Assembly (NCBI GenBank): GCA_902524285.1
Contig: CABZCR010000001.1
Coordinates: 81,774-145,773 of the forward strand
Direction: 5' to 3'
Length of the DNA: 64,000 nucleotides
From: an uncultured Pelagibacteraceae bacterium
Lineage (GTDB): Bacteria; Pseudomonadota; Alphaproteobacteria; Pelagibacterales; AG-422-B15
Shown: positions 4,741 to 43,110 of the stretch, one piece after another
How the letters are laid out: every line of letters begins with the position of its first letter
How positions within the stretch are numbered: position 1 is the first letter of the stretch
Translations under genes and position numbers: made by a program
Notes under the pieces: generated by a model
Told to the model about the DNA's origin: nothing
The model's database searches: none
Seen by the model: only the letters and a program-made list of their open reading frames with translations

Positions 4741-4830
4741 GGAAAGGTGGCCGAGTGGTTGAAGGCGCACGCTTGGAAAGCGTGTATGCGGGTGACCGTA
4801 TCGTGGGTTCGAATCCCATCCTTTCCGCCA
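4741..4830 (+). tRNA. tRNA-Ser (anticodon GGA)
   Basis: 90-nt cloverleaf. Acceptor stem GGAAAGG/CCTTTCC; anticodon stem CACGC/GCGTG with loop TTGGAAA; long variable arm; T-loop GGTTCGAATCC; encoded CCA. It is a GC-rich island in AT-rich DNA. Confidence 0.93.
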
Positions 4831-18900: not shown

Positions 18901-19278
18901 TTAAGCAGCTTTATTTATCATATCTAGCCACATCGTGAATTCATCAATGAGTTCACCTGATGGCTGGATGATTTTTACTCTTTTATCTTTAGAACTTACT
19001 TGAGTGACAAGTGAGCCTTTACTAATTTCATCGTTTATAAAATTTATAATAGTTGCTCTAGATGCAAGGTCTGACATATTCTTCGTCAGATATTCTTTCG
19101 TGCACTCAATTTTGTTGATGTTAGAGTCGAAATAAAGTCTCATAATTTCGTAACATATTCTAATACCATAAACCGATCGACGAAAATGGCTAAGACGGCT
19201 AAAAACTTTCCTATCACCCGCACTTTCAAAAACTTTAATCTGTTTGATAACTTGCTCAAAAATTTTTTCAGTTTTCAT
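18901..19278 (-). CDS. hypothetical protein with MarR-like winged-helix region
   Basis: I trimmed the start to the ATG at 19278 (MKTEKIF...). The C-terminal half, LASRATIINFINDEISKGSLVTQVSSKDKRVKIIQPSGEL, fits the helix-turn-helix plus wing pattern of MarR-type regulators. The similarity is weak and judged by eye. Confidence 0.45.
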   Translation of the reverse strand: MKTEKIFEQVIKQIKVFESAGDRKVFSRLSHFRRSVYGIRICYEIMRLYFDSNINKIECTKEYLTKNMSDLASRATIINFINDEISKGSLVTQVSSKDKRVKIIQPSGELIDEFTMWLDMINKAA

Positions 19279-19358
19279 AATAAATCTCTTTATAGGTTTG
19301 AATTGTATTATTAAATAATATGGATAATTATTAATAATAATTATTTGCCAGTTTGGCG

Positions 19359-19371
19359 GCATATAATATGC
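19359..19371. promoter_or_regulatory. perfect inverted repeat GCATAT-A-ATATGC containing TATAAT
   Basis: 6-1-6 palindrome in the divergent spacer between the wHTH-like gene and the 75-aa ORF. Confidence 0.35.
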
Positions 19372-19423: not shown

Positions 19424-19651
19424 ATGAATGAAGAAAATAAAAAGAAAGTGTGGAAACTAATACAAAAAACTGGTGACGAGTTAAAAGGAAAACTACCCGA
19501 ACACCCATCACATCCAAAAGGTCGTAATCCATACGCCCACATAGCATTAGAGATTAAGAACCATTTTGGAATGTCTTATAATGAAATTTCAGATGAACGA
19601 ATACCTGAACTTGAAAAATTTATATTTTATATTCGTGATAACCCAAAATAA
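19424..19651 (+). CDS. hypothetical protein (75 aa)
   Basis: ORF with a plausible ATG and no family that I recognise (PEHPSHPKGRNPYAHIALEIKNHFG). Confidence 0.4.
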   Translation: MNEENKKKVWKLIQKTGDELKGKLPEHPSHPKGRNPYAHIALEIKNHFGMSYNEISDERIPELEKFIFYIRDNPK

Positions 19652-19658
19652 AGAATTT

Positions 19659-20483
19659 TTAGGGTTTCCACTCTGGTCTTCCAAAAAAAGAAAGAAACTT
19701 TTCTTTAGCGGTTGTTGACACTTTGAAATCAGATATCATTTGTCCCCAAAACATAAATGTTATTTTGATAGGATTGTATGTTTTGACATTTTCCCTAATT
19801 CCAAATTTTACAGGCTCAATTTCCTCTGCAAAAGTTCCAAATAATCTGTCCCAAATGATTAGTAAGTTGCCATAATTTCTATCTATGTAACACTCGTTGC
19901 TCCCATGATGAACCCTGTGTGAAGACGGAGTAACAAGAATATACTCTAAGATACCTAATCTTCTAATCCATTGTGTATGCCCAATAACACCCCAGAGCGT
20001 TGAGGCTACACCTGCTACAGCTGTGATAATTGGGTCAAACCCAACTAATGGCATGAATATAAAAAAGGGTACTTTAGTTATTGGTCCAAACCAGGCCTGT
20101 CTCAAAGAAACAGTGAAATTCATTTCTTCACTTGAATGATGATTCATATGAACAGCCCACATAAATCGTACTCTGTGAGAGAAGCGATGATACCAGTAAT
20201 AGACAAAATCAATCATCACAAATGTAGCAAGCCACACAGCCCATAATGGAAGGAGATCATTGACTGTGATTAATCTAAATTGATATAGATAAATGTATAT
20301 TAAAAAAATTGAGCTTTTAGTCAGAAGCCCAATCAAAAAATTTCCACTCAACAGACCTAGTCCTGCAAAGGTATCCCTTAATTTGTAAAAATTTAGTCCT
20401 TTCACAGAAGAATAAATTACTTCAGCTGTAATAAGCAGTAAAACAATCGGTACCCCGTAAGCATATACGTCTAATTCAGTCAT
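19659..20483 (-). CDS. fatty acid hydroxylase / sterol desaturase family membrane protein
   Basis: Three histidine boxes: HRFSHR, HMNHH, HRVHH. I trimmed the start to the ATG at 20483 (MTELDVY). Confidence 0.8.
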   Translation of the reverse strand: MTELDVYAYGVPIVLLLITAEVIYSSVKGLNFYKLRDTFAGLGLLSGNFLIGLLTKSSIFLIYIYLYQFRLITVNDLLPLWAVWLATFVMIDFVYYWYHRFSHRVRFMWAVHMNHHSSEEMNFTVSLRQAWFGPITKVPFFIFMPLVGFDPIITAVAGVASTLWGVIGHTQWIRRLGILEYILVTPSSHRVHHGSNECYIDRNYGNLLIIWDRLFGTFAEEIEPVKFGIRENVKTYNPIKITFMFWGQMISDFKVSTTAKEKFLSFFGRPEWKP

Positions 20484-20527
20484 AATCTCTATTGAAATAT
20501 ATATCATTAGAATTATTTAGGAAAAGT

Positions 20528-21112
20528 ATGAAAAATATATTCTTTACAATTTTATTAAGCTTCTGTCTGACTGTCACTGTATTAGCTAAAAATGACGGTG
20601 GAGGCGGTAATAGTGGGGGCAATTCAGGAGGTAATTCGGGTGGAAATTCTGGTGGTAATTCAGGTGGAAATTCCGGTAGTAATTCTGGAGGTAGCTCAAA
20701 CGGCAGCGGAGGGGGAGGCCATTATTCAAGTAGCACTGGATATGATAAAGAGCTTAGACGTATCTTGTTTGAAATTGAAAAAAATGAAAACTATGATGGT
20801 GCTTTAAAAGACCTTGAGATTTATGTATACGAAAACCCTCAAAATGCTAATGGATGGAATCTGATTGGTTTCGCAAGTAGAAAGCTTGGGAAATTTGATG
20901 ATGCTGAGCTTTATTATAATACAGGTCTAGAGATCGAACCACAGCACGATGATATACTAGCTTATCAAGGTGAGCTTTATCTTCAGACCAATAGATATGA
21001 AAAAGCACTTGAAAATTTAGCTATACTTACTGAATTGTGCACGTTTAATTGCTCAGAAAAAAAAGAATTGGCCGAGGCTATTAAAAATTACGAAACTGAG
21101 AATAATTTATAA
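20528..21112 (+). CDS. secreted TPR-repeat protein with N-terminal Gly/Asn/Ser-rich linker
   Basis: I trimmed the start to the ATG at 20528, which follows AGGAAA. It has signal peptide MKNIFFTILLSFCLTVTVLA, GGNS repeats, then TPR-like helices (GWNLIGFASRKLGKFDDAELYYNTGLEIEP). Confidence 0.75.
   Translation: MKNIFFTILLSFCLTVTVLAKNDGGGGNSGGNSGGNSGGNSGGNSGGNSGSNSGGSSNGSGGGGHYSSSTGYDKELRRILFEIEKNENYDGALKDLEIYVYENPQNANGWNLIGFASRKLGKFDDAELYYNTGLEIEPQHDDILAYQGELYLQTNRYEKALENLAILTELCTFNCSEKKELAEAIKNYETENNL
20597..20719 (+). repeat. in-frame 12-nt repeat tract encoding (GGNS)x6 plus degenerate units
   Basis: Six perfect GGNS peptide units at 20603-20674, then GSNS, GGSS, NGSGGGG. The DNA units differ at synonymous positions. 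Confidence 0.9.
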
Positions 21113-21164
21113 CTTGTTGATTTATTTGCCTGGTCAACTAATCTTTTATAAATAAAGTTTTGTT

Positions 21165-21383
21165 ATGATAAAAGTCTTAGTTTTTTTTGTGCTTGGAGCA
21201 GCAACCCTATACTTTATTATAAGAGCTCTTGTTAATACAGAGCCAGGTAAATTATCTCGAGTTATAAAAATAATTATATTTGCAGTTATAATAATTGCAG
21301 TTGTTTTTATGTTAACAAGAGGTAACCTTGGGTTTCTTGCGCCTATTATAGGTCTTGCAAGAAGACTGTTAGTGGGTTTTTAG
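21165..21383 (+). CDS. small two-TM membrane protein (72 aa)
   Basis: Two hydrophobic helices separated by TEPGKLSRVIK. It resembles the membrane anchor of some alphaproteobacterial DnaJ-like proteins but has no J domain. Confidence 0.5.
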   Translation: MIKVLVFFVLGAATLYFIIRALVNTEPGKLSRVIKIIIFAVIIIAVVFMLTRGNLGFLAPIIGLARRLLVGF

Positions 21384-21388
21384 ATATA

Positions 21389-23047
21389 ATGTTTAACATT
21401 AAAAAAAGTTTAATAATTACAATTTTCTTTTTGTCATCTTTTATTTTCTTTACTTCATGCGATAATGATCCTAATCAGTCTGCTGCATTTACCGGAGTAC
21501 GAGTAATTGATAATTCTTATTCTCCTCCTGTTGTTAGAATAAATGAGGGAGGTAAGGTTAGATTTAATAATTGGGGTAATAATCCGCATAATGTTATTGC
21601 TGTGGATGAAACTTGGGGCTCATTCGAAGAAATACCTAAAGGTGACTACCTAGATATTACTTATGAATCTGAGGGTTTATACAAATATTTATGTTCATTT
21701 CACGCATCGCCTGACGGTGAGTGGGGAATGGTAGGTTCTGTTGTTGTCGGCGATATTAATTATGAAGATTATACAAACTTTTCAAAAATGGACGTAGTAC
21801 CATCTTTCTCTGGGTCAGTGAGAAATGTACCTGACGATTATGAAACAATTCAAGATGCAGTTAATGCGTCAAATCCTGGGGACTTAATTCTTATTAAACC
21901 TGGGGTTTACTATGAAGAAGTTGTTGTGAATGTTCCATCAATAACAATTCGTGGCTGGGATAGAAATAATACAATAATTGATGGTGAGTTTGAAAGAGGT
22001 AACGGAGTTCTTGTTGCAGGTGTCGATGGCGTTGTGATTGAAAACATCACTGCACGTAACGCATTGCTCAATGGTTTTTACTGGGCAACAGTTAAGGGTT
22101 ATAGGGGATCATATTTAACAGCCTATAACAATGGTGACTATGGTGTTTATGCATTTGACGCAGTTGATGGTGTGTTAGAACATTCGTATGCATCAGGTTC
22201 TCCTGACGCAGGCTTTTATATTGGGCAATGTTACCCTTGCGATGCAATTGTAAATAATGTTATTTCAGAAAATAATGGTCTTGGTTATTCTGGAACTAAT
22301 TCGGGAGGCTCTCTATACATTATTAGTTCAGTATTCAGAAATAATAAAGGGGGGCTAGCTCCAAATACATTAGACTCAGAATTGCTACCTCCTGAAAGAG
22401 AGACGTTTATTATTGGGAATTTAATTGAAAATAACAACAATAATGATGCTCCTGCTACAAAATCAACTTACTTATCCTTTGGCAACGGGGTTATTATTGC
22501 TGGTGGCAACAATAATATAATTAAAAATAATGTAATTGCTAATCATGATCTATACGGCGTTATTCTTACTGCGGCAGCTGATGTAAATTATTGGCCGGCC
22601 CATGGAAACAGAGTTGAAGATAATCTAATTTTATCATCTAACAGGGCAGATATGGCAATTAGTGGTGTATCCAATCTTGGTAATTGTTTTAAGGGAAACT
22701 ATTTTAATACTTCTATACCACCTGGTTTGCAGTCTTTAAATAATTGTGACTCAGGCTTCATTCCATTGAGTTCAGACCTCTCAGGAATGTGGTCGTCACT
22801 TGCAAGGATTATTCATGCAAGCGATGGTGGGTATCAACAAGGTGATTGGAGATCTTTTCCTAAACCTGAAAATCAACCAAATATGCCAATTATGGAAAAG
22901 TTGTTAAATCAAGGATATGATAAGAAAAATTTACCTACCTATATGATCAGAAAGTCTGTAAAGCCAGCAGTCGAGGTTTTTCAACAGTTCGAAGATGTTT
23001 TAGCTGAGATTGAATTACCTGAAGAAGCAAGAAACTATTTGAACTAA
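21389..23047 (+). CDS. lipoprotein with N-terminal cupredoxin-like domain fused to right-handed parallel beta-helix (NosD/CASH-like) repeats
   Basis: Lipobox-like FFTSC. Candidate type-1 Cu ligands are NNPHNV ... YLCSFHASPDGEWGMVGSVVVG. Repeated beta-helix turns follow (IENITARNA, VISENNGLGYSG, NLIENNNN, NNIIKNNVIANH, VEDNLILSS). Confidence 0.65.
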   Translation: MFNIKKSLIITIFFLSSFIFFTSCDNDPNQSAAFTGVRVIDNSYSPPVVRINEGGKVRFNNWGNNPHNVIAVDETWGSFEEIPKGDYLDITYESEGLYKYLCSFHASPDGEWGMVGSVVVGDINYEDYTNFSKMDVVPSFSGSVRNVPDDYETIQDAVNASNPGDLILIKPGVYYEEVVVNVPSITIRGWDRNNTIIDGEFERGNGVLVAGVDGVVIENITARNALLNGFYWATVKGYRGSYLTAYNNGDYGVYAFDAVDGVLEHSYASGSPDAGFYIGQCYPCDAIVNNVISENNGLGYSGTNSGGSLYIISSVFRNNKGGLAPNTLDSELLPPERETFIIGNLIENNNNNDAPATKSTYLSFGNGVIIAGGNNNIIKNNVIANHDLYGVILTAAADVNYWPAHGNRVEDNLILSSNRADMAISGVSNLGNCFKGNYFNTSIPPGLQSLNNCDSGFIPLSSDLSGMWSSLARIIHASDGGYQQGDWRSFPKPENQPNMPIMEKLLNQGYDKKNLPTYMIRKSVKPAVEVFQQFEDVLAEIELPEEARNYLN

Positions 23048-23084
23048 TAGTTTAATTGTTTAACCTATTTATAGGAGATTTTAG

Positions 23085-23405
23085 ATGCCAGGTGTTACTT
23101 TTTTTCCATTAAATGATGTACCGTTTTTATCATTATTTTTTAACTTTTATGGCTACTATCTTCCCATATTTTTATATGCGACTTGGACGTCTACTGCATT
23201 ATTTGATTTATTTCTTTCAAAATACAGAGGCACGACTGGAAAAGTAATTTGGACATTTATCGTCATGTTCATTCCTCTAATCGGCTCATTAATCTATCAC
23301 CTATTTGCAGCTAGGGAGTTAGATGTAACGATTAGGGCGACCATGATCTTTGGTGGTATTGGTATTTTAATAATTGTTTTTCTCTATCTCGGTCTAGCCC
23401 TTTAA
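23085..23405 (+). CDS. PLD-nuclease-N-terminal-domain (PLDc_N) small membrane protein
   Basis: 106 aa. GKVIWTFIVMFIPLIGSLIYHLF matches the PLDc_N pattern. Confidence 0.6.
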   Translation: MPGVTFFPLNDVPFLSLFFNFYGYYLPIFLYATWTSTALFDLFLSKYRGTTGKVIWTFIVMFIPLIGSLIYHLFAARELDVTIRATMIFGGIGILIIVFLYLGLAL

Positions 23406-25641: not shown

Positions 25642-26196
25642 TTATTCAATGGGTGCAGGATTATCGCTGAAACTTCTTAAATAAAGTATGACGTTCGCTC
25701 TATCTTTTTCTTTTTTTAGACCCACAAAAGACATTTTTGTACCTTCAATATATTTTTTTGGATTTAAAAGGTAACCGTTAAGCTGCTCGTATGTCCAGTT
25801 GCCACCATATGCCGCCATTGCGTTTGAGTATTTATAATCCTCTTTTGAACCAATATCTTTATTTACAATATCCCAGAGCGCTGGCCCAATTTTATTTGCT
25901 CCGCCTTTTTCCACAACATGACACTGTGAACATTTCTTAAAGACCTTTGCACCTTTTTCTATATCCGCTGATGCAAGCAGAGTCTGAATTGGTATTTCAG
26001 GTTCCGCTGTAGCAGCGTCATCTGCCATTGCTGCTGATGCAGACACTACCATATCTTCAGCACCTTCAACTTGATAGGCTGCTACCTCGGGTTTTTCAAC
26101 ATGATATAAAATCTCACTGAAATTTGCTAAACCGATAAATACAAGGGCCACAACTAATACACAGGCTACGATTTTATTGATTTCAAATGAATCCAT
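25642..26196 (-). CDS. membrane-anchored cytochrome c (CycM-like)
   Basis: I trimmed the start to the ATG at 26196. N-terminal TM anchor, then class I heme motif CSQCH with GPALWDIV and MSFVGLKK. Confidence 0.8.
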   Translation of the reverse strand: MDSFEINKIVACVLVVALVFIGLANFSEILYHVEKPEVAAYQVEGAEDMVVSASAAMADDAATAEPEIPIQTLLASADIEKGAKVFKKCSQCHVVEKGGANKIGPALWDIVNKDIGSKEDYKYSNAMAAYGGNWTYEQLNGYLLNPKKYIEGTKMSFVGLKKEKDRANVILYLRSFSDNPAPIE

Positions 26197-26254
26197 GATG
26201 TCTCTTGACGTAATTAGATAATTATTTAAACAATAACCGAATTTAATCAAGTTT

Positions 26255-28783: not shown

Positions 28784-28834
28784 TAATTTATTATTTATTA
28801 AACAACATTTTATTTTCGTTATGATACAATATTT

Positions 28835-28927
28835 TGGGAGATTGAGTAGACAAGTTATTCGCCAATCCGGTCAGGTCTGAAAAGAAGCAGCCGTAACGAA
28901 GATATTTGGGTTACGTTGATCTCCCAC
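28835..28927 (+). ncRNA. ffs: signal recognition particle RNA (4.5S-type)
   Basis: Closing helix GGGAGAT/ATCTCCC. Conserved domain IV CCGGTCAGGTCTGAAAAGAAGCAGCC with a GAAA tetraloop. It sits immediately upstream of dnaX, which is the conserved ffs-dnaX-ybaB-recR order. Confidence 0.85.
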
Positions 28928-28945
28928 TAAAGATTAGTGATTTTT

Positions 28946-43033: not shown

Positions 43034-43110
43034 GCGCCGGTGGCTCAGCTGGATAGAGCACCAGACTACGAATCTGGGGGTCGGGAGTTCGAATCTCTCC
43101 CGGCGCGCCA
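43034..43110 (+). tRNA. tRNA-Arg (anticodon ACG)
   Basis: 77 nt. Acceptor GCGCCGG/CCGGCGC; anticodon stem CCAGA/TCTGG with loop CTACGAA; T-loop GTTCGAATC; encoded CCA. Confidence 0.93.

What the first reader, a model, noticed from the sequence alone, without database searches (positions are those of the whole stretch)
20528..23405. Co-directional envelope cluster centred on a cupredoxin/beta-helix fusion lipoprotein
Four consecutive plus-strand genes encode exported or membrane proteins. They are a TPR protein with a GGNS linker, a 72-aa two-TM protein, a 552-aa lipoprotein and a PLDc_N-type small membrane protein. In the lipoprotein, a cupredoxin-like domain has candidate type-1 copper ligands His (NNPHNV) and Cys/His/Met (LCSFHASPDGEWGM). 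It is fused to a NosD/CASH-like parallel beta-helix and an unassigned C-terminal region of about 100 aa. The His-to-Met spacing in the copper loop is longer than in textbook plastocyanin or azurin loops. Cupredoxin plus beta-helix is not a combination I can assign to a characterised enzyme. It may be a periplasmic redox-linked carbohydrate- or polymer-acting protein, or a copper-handling protein with membrane partners. The gene also looks somewhat more GC-rich than its neighbours.
Basis: partly seen in the sequence, partly recalled or inferred. Interest (0 to 1): 0.6.

Follow-up and report, generated by a model that had tools for sequence, protein, structure and literature searches.

The report
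Blue-copper/beta-helix lipoprotein with membrane partner
A SAR11 ocean bacterium carries a two-gene module, a blue-copper electron-transfer domain fused to a beta-helix domain plus a small membrane protein, that is conserved across many bacterial phyla but has never been characterised; the other two genes in the reported "cluster" are a local insertion.

Summary
The four plus-strand ORFs and their domain calls are real. The window comes from a Pelagibacteraceae (SAR11) genome. The 552-aa lipoprotein has a type-1 copper cupredoxin domain, a right-handed beta-helix and a helical C-terminal region (AlphaFold pLDDT 87).

The copper ligands His67, Cys102 and His105 are essentially invariant in 185 homologous domains. 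The axial position is Met in 171, Gln in 13 and Leu in 1.

The conserved unit is only two genes: this protein plus the downstream PLDc_N membrane protein.
- PLDc_N is fused to the C-terminus in Leptospira and several other lineages.
- Where the cupredoxin is not fused, a separate cupredoxin gene lies directly upstream of the beta-helix gene in 42 of 51 evaluable metagenomic loci.
- Outside SAR11, 44 of 50 genomic loci add a two-domain multicopper oxidase and 26 of 50 add SCO1. SAR11 has neither nearby.

The TPR and 72-aa genes, with a fatty-acid hydroxylase, form a three-gene insertion found only in some SAR11 subclades.

The GC claim fails (z = 0.78; GC3 z = -0.04).

The beta-helix fails the NosD and TIGR03805 cut-offs. 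No functional study was found. The Leptospira homologue LIC12217 is merely annotated "petE".

Best reading: a membrane-tethered periplasmic copper redox module with an unknown substrate.

The parts
21389..23047 (+). CupBH: 552-aa periplasmic lipoprotein made of a signal/lipobox, a type-1 copper cupredoxin, a right-handed beta-helix and a helical C-terminal region. This is the core gene.
   Evidence: ORF. Pfam and NCBIfam scans. AlphaFold pLDDT 87.2, pTM 0.84. Homologues at 97-42% identity in SAR11, Leptospira, Gemmatimonadota, Acidimicrobiia and others.
21389..21460 (+). Signal peptide with lipobox FFTS-C24. Asp follows the Cys, which under the E. coli rule suggests inner-membrane retention (inference).
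   Evidence: Helix 2-22 in the model. Hydrophobic segment 4-26. Cys24 at least 90% conserved. UniProt names the L. interrogans homologue Q8F5W3 'Lipoprotein'.
21485..21751 (+). Cupredoxin domain (aa 33-121). Type-1 copper ligand codons: His67 (21587-21589), Cys102 (21692-21694), His105 (21701-21703), Met114 (21728-21730).
   Evidence: PF00127 scores 23.1 bits, above the 21.2 cut-off. Family profile against PDB: 5fc9 E 1.4e-10, plastocyanins 2e-8. Foldseek TM 0.77-0.80 to 5fc9 and 1bxu. Ligand conservation in 185 domains: H 185, C 185, H 184, M 171 / Q 13 / L 1. Codon positions checked.
21815..22723 (+). Right-handed parallel beta-helix (aa 143-445). Family-wide conserved residues: R188, D191, R192, D198, E218, Y251, Y254, D273, Y277, C281-x-P-C284 (22229-22240), D421, C433.
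   Evidence: PF13229 39.5 bits. TIGR03805 73.8 bits, below the 141.5 cut-off. Strand ladder 144-435 in the model. Foldseek top hits are the AlgE4 epimerase, PL6 lyases and pectin methylesterase at 10-17% identity. Conservation measured over 136 cluster representatives.
22724..23044 (+). Helical C-terminal region (aa 446-552). It contains conserved Cys453 and the motif P491-x-P493...M499-P500. In fused homologues it leads directly into the PLDc_N domain.
   Evidence: Helices 447-551 in the model. Conservation. Leptospira alignment.
23085..23405 (+). PLDc_N small membrane protein (106 aa, about 3 helices). It is the conserved partner of CupBH.
   Evidence: PF13396 30.1 bits, above the 23.3 cut-off. 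It lies directly downstream of CupBH in every SAR11 locus with visible downstream sequence. A homologous domain is fused to the CupBH C-terminus in Leptospira and in Gemmatimonadota, Actinomycetes and other MAGs, and in 23 of 150 cluster representatives. Three helices are predicted in the fused model.
21165..21383 (+). 72-aa protein with two hydrophobic segments. It ends 5 nt before CupBH. It is SAR11-subclade-specific and not part of the conserved core.
   Evidence: No Pfam hit. Found in 25 loci, all SAR11; absent from L024-L031 and L083.
20528..21112 (+). Exported TPR protein (194 aa from the ATG at 20528) with a (GGNS)n linker. It is SAR11-subclade-specific and not part of the conserved core.
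   Evidence: TPR_1 and TPR_2 above cut-off. 12-nt tandem repeat at 20621-20693. Found only in SAR11 loci.
19659..20507 (-). Fatty-acid hydroxylase family membrane protein. It is the third member of the inserted block.
   Evidence: PF04116 105 bits. It sits between the 75-aa gene and TPR only in loci that also carry TPR and the 72-aa gene.
19424..19651 (+). Conserved 75-aa SAR11 gene, used as a synteny marker. In distant SAR11 subclades it lies directly upstream of CupBH, which defines the insertion.

Best explanation
Genes 3 and 4 form a two-gene periplasmic copper redox module.

Components:
- The 552-aa protein (CupBH) is a lipoprotein tethered to the membrane.
- Its N-terminal cupredoxin carries a functional type-1 (blue) copper centre that acts as a built-in one-electron relay.
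- The beta-helix with its helical C-terminal region is the working part. It belongs to a distinct, uncharacterised family that is strongly conserved: about 50% identity between SAR11 and Leptospira.
- The 106-aa PLDc_N protein is its integral-membrane subunit or anchor.

Proposed mechanism:
1. A periplasmic substrate (unknown) is bound and oxidised or reduced on the beta-helix. The site would be built from the conserved Asp/Tyr/Arg residues and possibly the C281-x-P-C284 pair.
2. The electron passes through the type-1 copper.
3. The copper centre exchanges electrons with a separate protein. In Leptospira, Gemmatimonadota and some Proteobacteria this is a two-domain multicopper oxidase encoded next door, with SCO1 to load copper. 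In some other lineages it is a di-haem oxidoreductase. In SAR11, which has neither nearby, it is presumably respiratory-chain cytochrome c or the oxidase.

Shown here:
- domain identities and the conserved copper ligand set;
- cupredoxin/beta-helix fusion-fission;
- PLDc_N fusion and adjacency;
- the variable redox neighbours.

Inferred:
- catalysis on the beta-helix;
- direction of electron flow;
- the partner in SAR11;
- inner-membrane location.

The TPR and 72-aa genes are not part of this module.
For: 1. The type-1 site is under strict selection. In 185 fused or free cupredoxin domains of the family, His/Cys/His are 185/185/184. The axial residue is Met in 171, Gln (a known alternative) in 13, and Leu in 1. 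The family profile hits blue copper proteins at E 1e-10.
2. Cupredoxin and beta-helix are linked by fusion and fission. In 80 metagenomic loci found with a cupredoxin-less beta-helix profile, 21 carry the fusion. Of the 51 unfused loci with visible upstream sequence, 42 have a separate cupredoxin gene immediately upstream on the same strand. One example scores PF00127 41 bits.
3. PLDc_N is fused to the CupBH C-terminus in Leptospira (668 aa) and several phyla, including variants without the cupredoxin. It is adjacent in all SAR11 loci with visible downstream sequence, in Gammaproteobacteria and in L084.
4. Redox and copper partners recur. A two-domain multicopper oxidase lies directly downstream in 44 of 50 non-SAR11 genomic loci, and SCO1/SenC in 26 of 50. 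A di-haem oxidoreductase (PF06537, 212 bits) lies downstream in 5 of 51 loci of another branch.
5. The beta-helix core is much more conserved than a scaffold would need to be. About 14 polar or Cys positions are at least 85% identical across 136 50%-identity cluster representatives.
6. The model is confident as a single multidomain body (pLDDT 87.2, pTM 0.84).
Against: - No catalytic activity, cofactor or substrate can be deduced for the beta-helix. Many of its invariant residues are Gly/Asn ladder positions, which are structural.
- The two conserved Cys pairs could simply be periplasmic disulfides.
- I could not read the model coordinates. The copper-site geometry and its distance to the conserved beta-helix patch are therefore untested.
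- In SAR11 and Acidimicrobiia no electron partner is encoded nearby, so the electron path there is a guess.
- The SAR11 PLDc_N groups with the free Leptospira paralogue, not the fused one, on an unsupported NJ tree. The fusion argument therefore holds at family level, not as strict orthology.
- The only published datum found is a 1.6-fold transcript change of the Leptospira homologue in serum (PMC2841595).
Confidence: 0.5

Rival explanations
1. NosD-like copper-insertion or maturation factor. The beta-helix, perhaps through the CxPC pair, receives copper and hands it to a periplasmic cuproenzyme, as NosD does for N2O reductase. PLDc_N would play the role of the membrane component.
For: A two-domain multicopper oxidase is downstream in 44 of 50 non-SAR11 genomic loci, and the copper chaperone SCO1 in 26 of 50. 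There are weak NosD model hits: PF05048 19-43 bits in relatives and TIGR04247 26-63 bits. A conserved C-x-P-C pair is present.
Against: - SAR11 (33 loci and the whole 64-kb window), Acidimicrobiia and 50 of 51 metagenomic loci of another branch lack the oxidase. Yet the protein stays about 50% identical.
- No NosF/NosY-type ABC transporter is adjacent in the window or in the Leptospira-type loci.
- Solved NosD (7o0y) matches the family profile only at E 0.02.
- All NosD model scores are far below cut-off.
- A chaperone has no obvious need for a strictly conserved type-1 electron-transfer site.
Confidence: 0.2
2. Glycan- or cell-wall-acting beta-helix enzyme (epimerase, lyase or esterase type) working on the envelope, with the cupredoxin as an accessory.
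For: Foldseek top hits are the AlgE4/AlgE6 mannuronan epimerases (E 1.8e-7), PL6 alginate lyases, pectin methylesterases and AlgG. The N-terminal cap matches pectin methylesterase (E 1e-5). In SAR11 the next genes are an NlpC/P60+SH3 peptidoglycan hydrolase and AmpG.
Against: - Identity to these enzymes is only 10-17%, with TM 0.26-0.43 normalised to the query. That is expected for any beta-helix.
- The epimerase DPH(D/E) motif is absent.
- NlpC/P60 and AmpG adjacency is confined to SAR11.
- The neighbours conserved across phyla are redox or copper proteins, not glycan enzymes.
Confidence: 0.1
3. Plain electron carrier. This is the 'plastocyanin/petE' of current annotations: the cupredoxin shuttles electrons in respiration, and the beta-helix and PLDc_N serve only as an inert membrane-proximal scaffold.
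For: The type-1 ligand set is conserved. Current annotations read plastocyanin or petE. A membrane-anchored cytochrome c gene lies about 2.6 kb away at 25642-26250.
Against: - The beta-helix is the most widespread and most conserved part. Most cluster representatives (about 110 of 150) have it without a fused cupredoxin.
- A scaffold would not keep about 14 polar or Cys positions at 85% or higher identity across phyla.
Confidence: 0.1
4. One reading: all four genes (TPR, 72-aa, CupBH, PLDc_N) act together as one envelope system.
For: The genes are co-directional with short gaps of 52, 5 and 37 nt. The arrangement is conserved in 24-26 closely related SAR11 loci.
Against: - TPR and the 72-aa gene are absent from more distant SAR11 loci (L024-L031, L083). 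There a conserved 75-aa gene abuts CupBH instead.
- Neither gene was found in any non-SAR11 locus.
- Short intergenic gaps are the rule in this genome.
Confidence: 0.05

Closest known systems
Type-1 blue copper proteins (plastocyanin, amicyanin, pseudoazurin; Nitrosopumilus Nmar_1307, PDB 5fc9)
   Same: The N-terminal domain has the cupredoxin fold and the His-Cys-His-Met ligand set. Pfam PF00127 is above threshold. The best solved relative is 5fc9 (E 5e-5 with the single sequence, 1.4e-10 with the family profile).
   Different: It is not a free ~100-aa carrier. It is covalently joined to, or encoded next to, a 400-aa beta-helix module and is lipid-anchored. The His-to-Met loop has 6-8 intervening residues, against 4 in the plastocyanin aligned.
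NosD, the periplasmic beta-helix of the NosDFY N2O-reductase assembly machinery (PDB 7o0y; TIGR04247, PF05048)
   Same: It is a periplasmic right-handed beta-helix in a copper-protein context with a membrane partner. There is weak sequence similarity in parts of the helix.
   Different: All NosD models score below cut-off. The PDB profile match is E 0.02. No nosZ or ABC-transporter (NosF/NosY) genes are adjacent. NosD carries no cupredoxin domain. The membrane partner here is a 3-helix PLDc_N protein.
NCBIfam TIGR03805 'parallel beta-helix domain-containing protein'. From my memory, it is paired with SO_2930-family di-haem cytochromes c.
   Same: It is the best-scoring curated model for the beta-helix (64-97 bits across the family). 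If my recollection of its di-haem partner is right, it shows the same logic of a beta-helix paired with an electron carrier.
   Different: Scores stay below the 141.5-bit cut-off, so this is a sister family, not a member. The carrier here is a cupredoxin. The TIGR03805 family is itself uncharacterised. Its partner was recalled from memory, not tested here.
Polysaccharide-active beta-helix enzymes (AlgE4/AlgG C5-epimerases, PL6 lyases, pectin methylesterases)
   Same: The overall fold is shared (Foldseek E 1e-7 to 1e-4), as is the N-terminal cap motif.
   Different: Identity is 10-17%. No epimerase DPH(D/E) motif is present. There is no glycan-metabolism context outside SAR11.
Leptospira interrogans LIC12217 / LA1553 ('petE, plastocyanin'; UniProt Q8F5W3 'Lipoprotein')
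   Same: It is a homologue at about 51-52% identity over the whole 552 aa, with the same domain order.
   Different: The Leptospira protein has PLDc_N fused at its C-terminus. It sits in an operon with a second PLDc_N, a two-domain multicopper oxidase and SCO1. It is uncharacterised apart from one transcriptome table (PMC2841595).

Membership tests
Type-1 copper cupredoxins (Pfam PF00127 Copper-bind) | Sequence score at or above the Pfam gathering threshold | tested here: met
   23.1 bits against a 21.2 cut-off at residues 43-120. Relatives score 25-41 bits. Family profile against PDB blue copper proteins reaches E 1.4e-10.
Type-1 copper cupredoxins (Pfam PF00127 Copper-bind) | His, Cys, His plus an axial Met/Gln ligand at the canonical positions | tested here: met
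   H67, C102, H105 and M114 align with the plastocyanin ligands. Conservation in 185 domains: 185/185/184, with axial M 171, Q 13, L 1.
Type-1 copper cupredoxins (Pfam PF00127 Copper-bind) | Greek-key beta-sandwich fold | tested here: met
   Model strands 34-120. Foldseek TM (target-normalised) is 0.77 to 5fc9 and 0.80 to 1bxu.
Type-1 copper cupredoxins (Pfam PF00127 Copper-bind) | Copper actually bound, with blue (~600 nm) absorption and correct site geometry | not testable with these tools
   Model coordinates are not exposed, and there is no experiment.
NosD (TIGR04247 / PF05048) | Sequence score at or above the curated cut-off | tested here: not met
   TIGR04247 scores 26.4 bits against 300. 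PF05048 scores 19.0 against 23.6. Solved NosD 7o0y matches the family profile at E 0.02.
NosD (TIGR04247 / PF05048) | Encoded with the NosF/NosY ABC transporter and nosZ | tested here: not met
   None of these appears among the genes flanking CupBH in the window or in the annotated related loci. ABC-2 genes occur at a distance only in two Acidimicrobiia loci.
TIGR03805 beta_helix_1 | Sequence score at or above the curated cut-off (141.5 bits) | tested here: not met
   73.8 bits for the window protein and 41-97 bits for ten relatives.
TIGR03805 beta_helix_1 | Adjacent SO_2930-family di-haem cytochrome c (recalled from memory) | tested here: inconclusive
   No such gene is next to CupBH in the window. 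A di-haem oxidoreductase (PF06537) follows the beta-helix gene in 5 of 51 metagenomic loci.
Mannuronan C5-epimerase / PL6-type beta-helix enzymes | Catalytic motif (epimerase DPH(D/E), recalled from memory) | tested here: not met
   No DPH string occurs anywhere in the protein. Similarity is at fold level only, at 10-17% identity.
PLDc_N (PF13396), for the 106-aa protein | Sequence score at or above the Pfam gathering threshold | tested here: met
   30.1 bits against 23.3 at residues 38-74.
Bacterial lipoproteins | Signal peptide ending in a lipobox with an invariant Cys | tested here: met
   FFTS-C24 follows a hydrophobic helix at 2-22. Cys24 is at least 90% conserved. Actual lipidation is not testable here.

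The most novel reading that the evidence does not exclude
The cupredoxin/beta-helix/PLDc_N unit is a new class of periplasmic copper-dependent oxidoreductase. In it a beta-helix domain, a fold known for glycan chemistry and for NosD, is the catalytic subunit, wired to a dedicated type-1 copper relay. In SAR11, the most abundant heterotroph in the ocean, it would feed electrons from an as yet unrecognised periplasmic substrate into respiration. Candidate substrates are a reduced metal, a sulfur species or an organic compound. Leptospira and others couple the same unit to their own multicopper oxidase.
Probability: 0.25. Interest if true: 0.75.

Novelty: new variant of a known kind. Interest (0 to 1): 0.45.

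Why it matters
This module is kept in a streamlined SAR11 genome at about 50% identity to the copy in the pathogen genus Leptospira. It also occurs in Gemmatimonadota, Acidimicrobiia, Myxococcota and others. That level of conservation points to an important, unrecognised periplasmic copper function.

Current annotations ('plastocyanin', 'petE', 'NosD') are misleading.

The comparative pattern gives a concrete, testable model and a genetically tractable host (Leptospira biflexa). The pattern is:
- the cupredoxin is either fused or encoded next door;
- PLDc_N is either fused or encoded next door;
- the oxidant-reducing partner is optional.

For ocean biogeochemistry, it would add a copper-dependent redox step to SAR11 physiology. 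It could also bear on copper demand and copper limitation.

Tried and rejected
- **Horizontal transfer or GC anomaly:** rejected. GC z = 0.78 and GC3 z = -0.04.
- **Multicopper oxidase or SCO1 elsewhere in the window:** tblastn with the Leptospira proteins found nothing.
- **NosD membership:** rejected on scores, context and the PDB profile match.
- **TIGR03805 membership:** rejected on scores.
- **Four-gene co-conservation:** rejected by the locus survey and the insertion analysis.
- **Copper-site geometry:** could not be checked because the tools do not return model coordinates.
- **Second model, of the fused Leptospira protein:** mediocre (pLDDT 68.6). It showed only that the PLDc_N part forms three helices.
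- **Pfam census of all 150 representatives in one call:** Replaced by local HMMs.
- **First metagenome query alignment:** too divergent. A smaller alignment worked.
- **Literature:** searches for the fusion, PLDc_N plus copper, NosD-like plus cupredoxin, and Leptospira plus NosD or multicopper oxidase found no functional study.
- **SAR11 paper on a 'plastocyanin-like' gene (PMC12636525):** it describes that gene in a small coastal subset with a multicopper oxidase and copper-resistance context. That context does not match this locus, and identity with this gene could not be established.
- **Homologue search with the 106-aa PLDc_N protein:** returned only close SAR11 relatives and no new architectures.
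- **Promoter and terminator scans:** at chance level.

Full report
**1. What is in the window**

The window is about 34% GC. It matches Pelagibacteraceae (SAR11) single-cell genomes at 97-98% protein identity for the central gene. Below, CupBH is my label for the 552-aa cupredoxin/beta-helix protein.

- **TPR protein.** The ORF listing ORF starts at a TTG at 20492 and overlaps the divergent upstream gene.
- **72-aa protein**, 21165-21383, with two hydrophobic segments.
- **552-aa protein**, 21389-23047.
- **106-aa protein**, 23085-23405.

Pfam confirms TPR repeats, PLDc_N (30.1 bits against a 23.3 cut-off), Copper-bind (23.1 against 21.2) and Beta_helix (39.5 against 25.9). The gaps between the four genes are 52, 5 and 37 nt. 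Promoter and terminator consensus scans are at chance level.

The gene is not compositionally unusual. Its GC is 0.359 against a gene mean of 0.340 ± 0.025, and GC3 is exactly average.

**2. Anatomy of the 552-aa protein**

AlphaFold with a 33-sequence alignment gives pLDDT 87.2 and pTM 0.84. The model contains:
- an N-terminal helix at 2-22 ending in the lipobox FFTS-Cys24;
- a beta-sandwich at 34-120;
- a linker;
- a long strand ladder at 144-435;
- helices at 447-551.

Foldseek against PDB matches the sandwich to blue copper proteins (5fc9, plastocyanins, amicyanins; target-normalised TM 0.67-0.80). It matches the ladder to generic right-handed beta-helix enzymes (AlgE4 epimerase at E 1.8e-7, PL6 lyases, pectin methylesterases) at 10-17% identity.

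By sequence, the single protein hits 5fc9 at E 5e-5, and a family profile hits it at E 1.4e-10. In the plastocyanin alignment, His67, Cys102, His105 and Met114 sit on the four copper ligands, with four extra residues between His and Met.

**3. The copper site is under selection**

I collected 185 cupredoxin domains of this family, fused or free, from genomes, metagenomes and cluster representatives. His/Cys/His are present in 185/185/184 of them. The axial position is Met in 171, Gln in 13 and Leu in 1. The His-to-Met spacing is 6-8 residues in 182 of them.

This is the pattern of a working type-1 centre. I could not check the geometry because model coordinates are not returned.

**4. How big and how known the family is**

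A word-indexed search found 4242 homologues. They range from marine sequences at 63-97% identity to 640-680-aa Leptospira proteins at about 52% identity over the full length. Sources name them 'plastocyanin', 'right-handed parallel beta-helix repeat-containing protein' or 'NosD'.

An exhaustive search of 50%-identity cluster representatives found 7564 hits at E <= 1e-3 and 356 at E <= 1e-30. These include SAR11, Leptospiraceae, Gemmatimonadota, Myxococcota, Steroidobacteraceae, Desulfobacterales, Thermoanaerobaculia and Actinomycetes.

The L. interrogans copy is AAN48752 / Q8F5W3 'Lipoprotein', which is LA1553 / LIC12217. One serum transcriptome table lists it as 'petE plastocyanin' at -1.62-fold (PMC2841595). 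No other paper in the library mentions it, and none describes the fusion.

A 2025 SAR11 pangenome paper reports a 'plastocyanin-like' gene in a few coastal genomes, within a multicopper-oxidase and copper-resistance context (PMC12636525). That context does not match this locus, and I could not tell whether it is the same gene.

**5. Which neighbours are really linked**

I called ORFs in 82 genomic loci plus the window and searched them iteratively with each neighbour.

*PLDc_N*
- In Leptospira the CupBH protein continues into a PLDc_N domain. A second, free PLDc_N gene follows it.
- Gammaproteobacterial loci have two free copies. Fused forms also occur in Gemmatimonadota, Actinomycetes, Thermoanaerobaculia and other MAGs.
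- PLDc_N is fused in 23 of 150 cluster representatives, including proteins without a cupredoxin.
- Every SAR11 locus with visible downstream sequence has the free 106-aa gene right after CupBH.
- On an unsupported NJ tree, the SAR11 protein groups with the free Leptospira paralogue.

*Cupredoxin*
- Most representatives are beta-helix only.
- A metagenome scan with a cupredoxin-less beta-helix profile returned 80 loci. Of these, 21 carry the fusion. Of the 51 unfused loci with visible upstream sequence, 42 have a separate cupredoxin gene directly upstream on the same strand. One example scores PF00127 41 bits.
- Fusion and fission of both the cupredoxin and PLDc_N with the beta-helix, in independent lineages, is the strongest evidence that the three parts work together.

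*Redox and copper partners*
- Outside SAR11, 44 of 50 genomic loci have a ~340-aa two-domain multicopper oxidase directly downstream. It carries Cu-oxidase_3 and Cu-oxidase_2 domains and is only NirK-like, at 80-97 bits against a 296 cut-off.
- 26 of 50 also have SCO1/SenC.
- In the metagenomic branch the oxidase is rare (1 of 51). Five loci instead have a di-haem oxidoreductase downstream (PF06537, 212 bits), and in one of these (L131) the upstream cupredoxin is fused to an esterase-like domain.
- Acidimicrobiia carry the gene alone, after pepA.
- SAR11 loci and the whole 64-kb window have no multicopper oxidase or SCO1.

*TPR and the 72-aa gene*
- These occur only in SAR11, and only in 24-26 of 33 loci.
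- In more distant SAR11 subclades (L024-L031, L083), a conserved 75-aa gene lies directly upstream of CupBH. In the window that gene is at 19424-19651.
- The fatty-acid hydroxylase (-), TPR (+) and 72-aa (+) genes are therefore a three-gene insertion, not part of the conserved module.
- The NlpC/P60 and AmpG genes downstream are syntenic only within SAR11.

**6. What the beta-helix is and is not**

NCBIfam's best model is TIGR03805, at 73.8 bits against a 141.5 cut-off. Ten relatives score 41-97 bits. NosD (TIGR04247) scores 26-63 bits against 300. A beta-helix-only family profile hits the pectin methylesterase N-terminal cap at E 1e-5 and solved NosD (7o0y) only at E 0.02. The protein contains no epimerase DPH motif. 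It is therefore a separate family within the pectate-lyase-like fold.

Across 136 representatives, the positions at least 85% conserved include many Gly/Asn ladder residues. They also include R188, D191, R192, D198, E218, Y251, Y254, D273, Y277, C281, C284, D421, C433 and C453, plus a P-x-P...M-P motif in the C-terminal region. The two Cys pairs may be disulfides or, for C-x-P-C, a metal or redox site. This cannot be decided here.

**7. Mechanism**

The evidence fits best a membrane-tethered periplasmic redox module:
- the beta-helix is the working domain;
- the type-1 copper domain is its dedicated electron relay;
- PLDc_N is the membrane subunit;
- the oxidant-reducing partner is interchangeable (multicopper oxidase, di-haem oxidoreductase, or the respiratory chain in SAR11).

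The architecture, ligand conservation, fusion-fission and partner census are shown. Catalysis on the beta-helix, the direction of electron flow, the SAR11 partner and inner-membrane retention (Asp after the lipid-modified Cys, by the E. coli rule) are inferred.

The main rival is a NosD-like copper-delivery factor for the neighbouring oxidase. It explains the Leptospira-type operon. It does not explain retention of the module at about 50% identity in lineages without the oxidase, nor the strict conservation of an electron-transfer site. A glycan-acting role rests only on generic fold similarity and SAR11-only synteny.

**8. Verdict**

The 'four-gene cluster' shrinks to a two-gene conserved module plus a local insertion. 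The GC hint is void.

The protein belongs to a very large, catalogued but functionally unstudied family. Its architecture is a new variant combining known parts: a blue copper domain, a beta-helix of the NosD/CASH fold class, and a PLDc_N membrane element.

Interest is moderate. The conservation, the presence in SAR11 and Leptospira, and a clear set of tests count in its favour. The absence of any functional handle counts against it.

Noticed in passing
window 19659-21383: A fatty-acid hydroxylase (-), the TPR gene (+) and the 72-aa gene (+) form a three-gene block. It is present in the window's SAR11 subclade but absent in others, where the 75-aa gene abuts CupBH. This is a clean indel polymorphism within SAR11.
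   Followed up: yes
window 20621-20693: A 12-nt tandem repeat (about 6 copies) encodes the (GGNS)n linker of the TPR protein. The TPR ORF length varies from 187 to 239 aa among closely related single-cell genomes, which suggests repeat-number variation.
   Followed up: partly
window 19424-19651: A conserved 75-aa SAR11 protein with the motif HPxHPKGRNPYAH has no Pfam hit. It was found in 29 SAR11 loci and in no non-SAR11 locus.
   Followed up: partly
window 18901-19362 (-): A 153-aa ORF has no significant family hit. Homologous 120-127-aa ORFs sit at the same position in distant SAR11 loci.
   Followed up: no
L001 12046-14142 (Leptospira borgpetersenii) and 40+ other loci: A conserved operon reads CupBH-PLDc_N fusion, free PLDc_N, a ~340-aa two-domain multicopper oxidase (His-Cys-His motif; only distantly NirK-like) and SCO1/SenC. 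The oxidase family itself looks uncharacterised.
   Followed up: partly
L131 3591-7828; also L129, L133, L134, L164: A variant arrangement reads alpha/beta-hydrolase (esterase-like) fused to a cupredoxin (Pfam-confirmed in L131), then the beta-helix gene, then a di-haem oxidoreductase (PF06537).
   Followed up: partly
P0229, P0243 (cluster representatives): Here the beta-helix module is fused to a C-terminal TolB-like PD40 beta-propeller (about 790 aa). P0121 and P0135 carry two beta-helix modules.
   Followed up: no
L011 8001-9659: In single-cell genome AG-919-N17 the CupBH gene is split into two ORFs of 230 and 291 aa. This is either a pseudogene or an assembly error.
   Followed up: no
window 28833-28931, 4741-4827, 43034-43107: Rfam gathering-threshold hits: a bacterial small SRP RNA and two tRNAs. 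No other RNA family was found in the window.
   Followed up: no
window 20492-20527: The mechanical ORF call for the TPR gene starts at a TTG that overlaps the 5' end of the divergent hydroxylase gene. The ATG at 20528 is the likely true start.
   Followed up: yes
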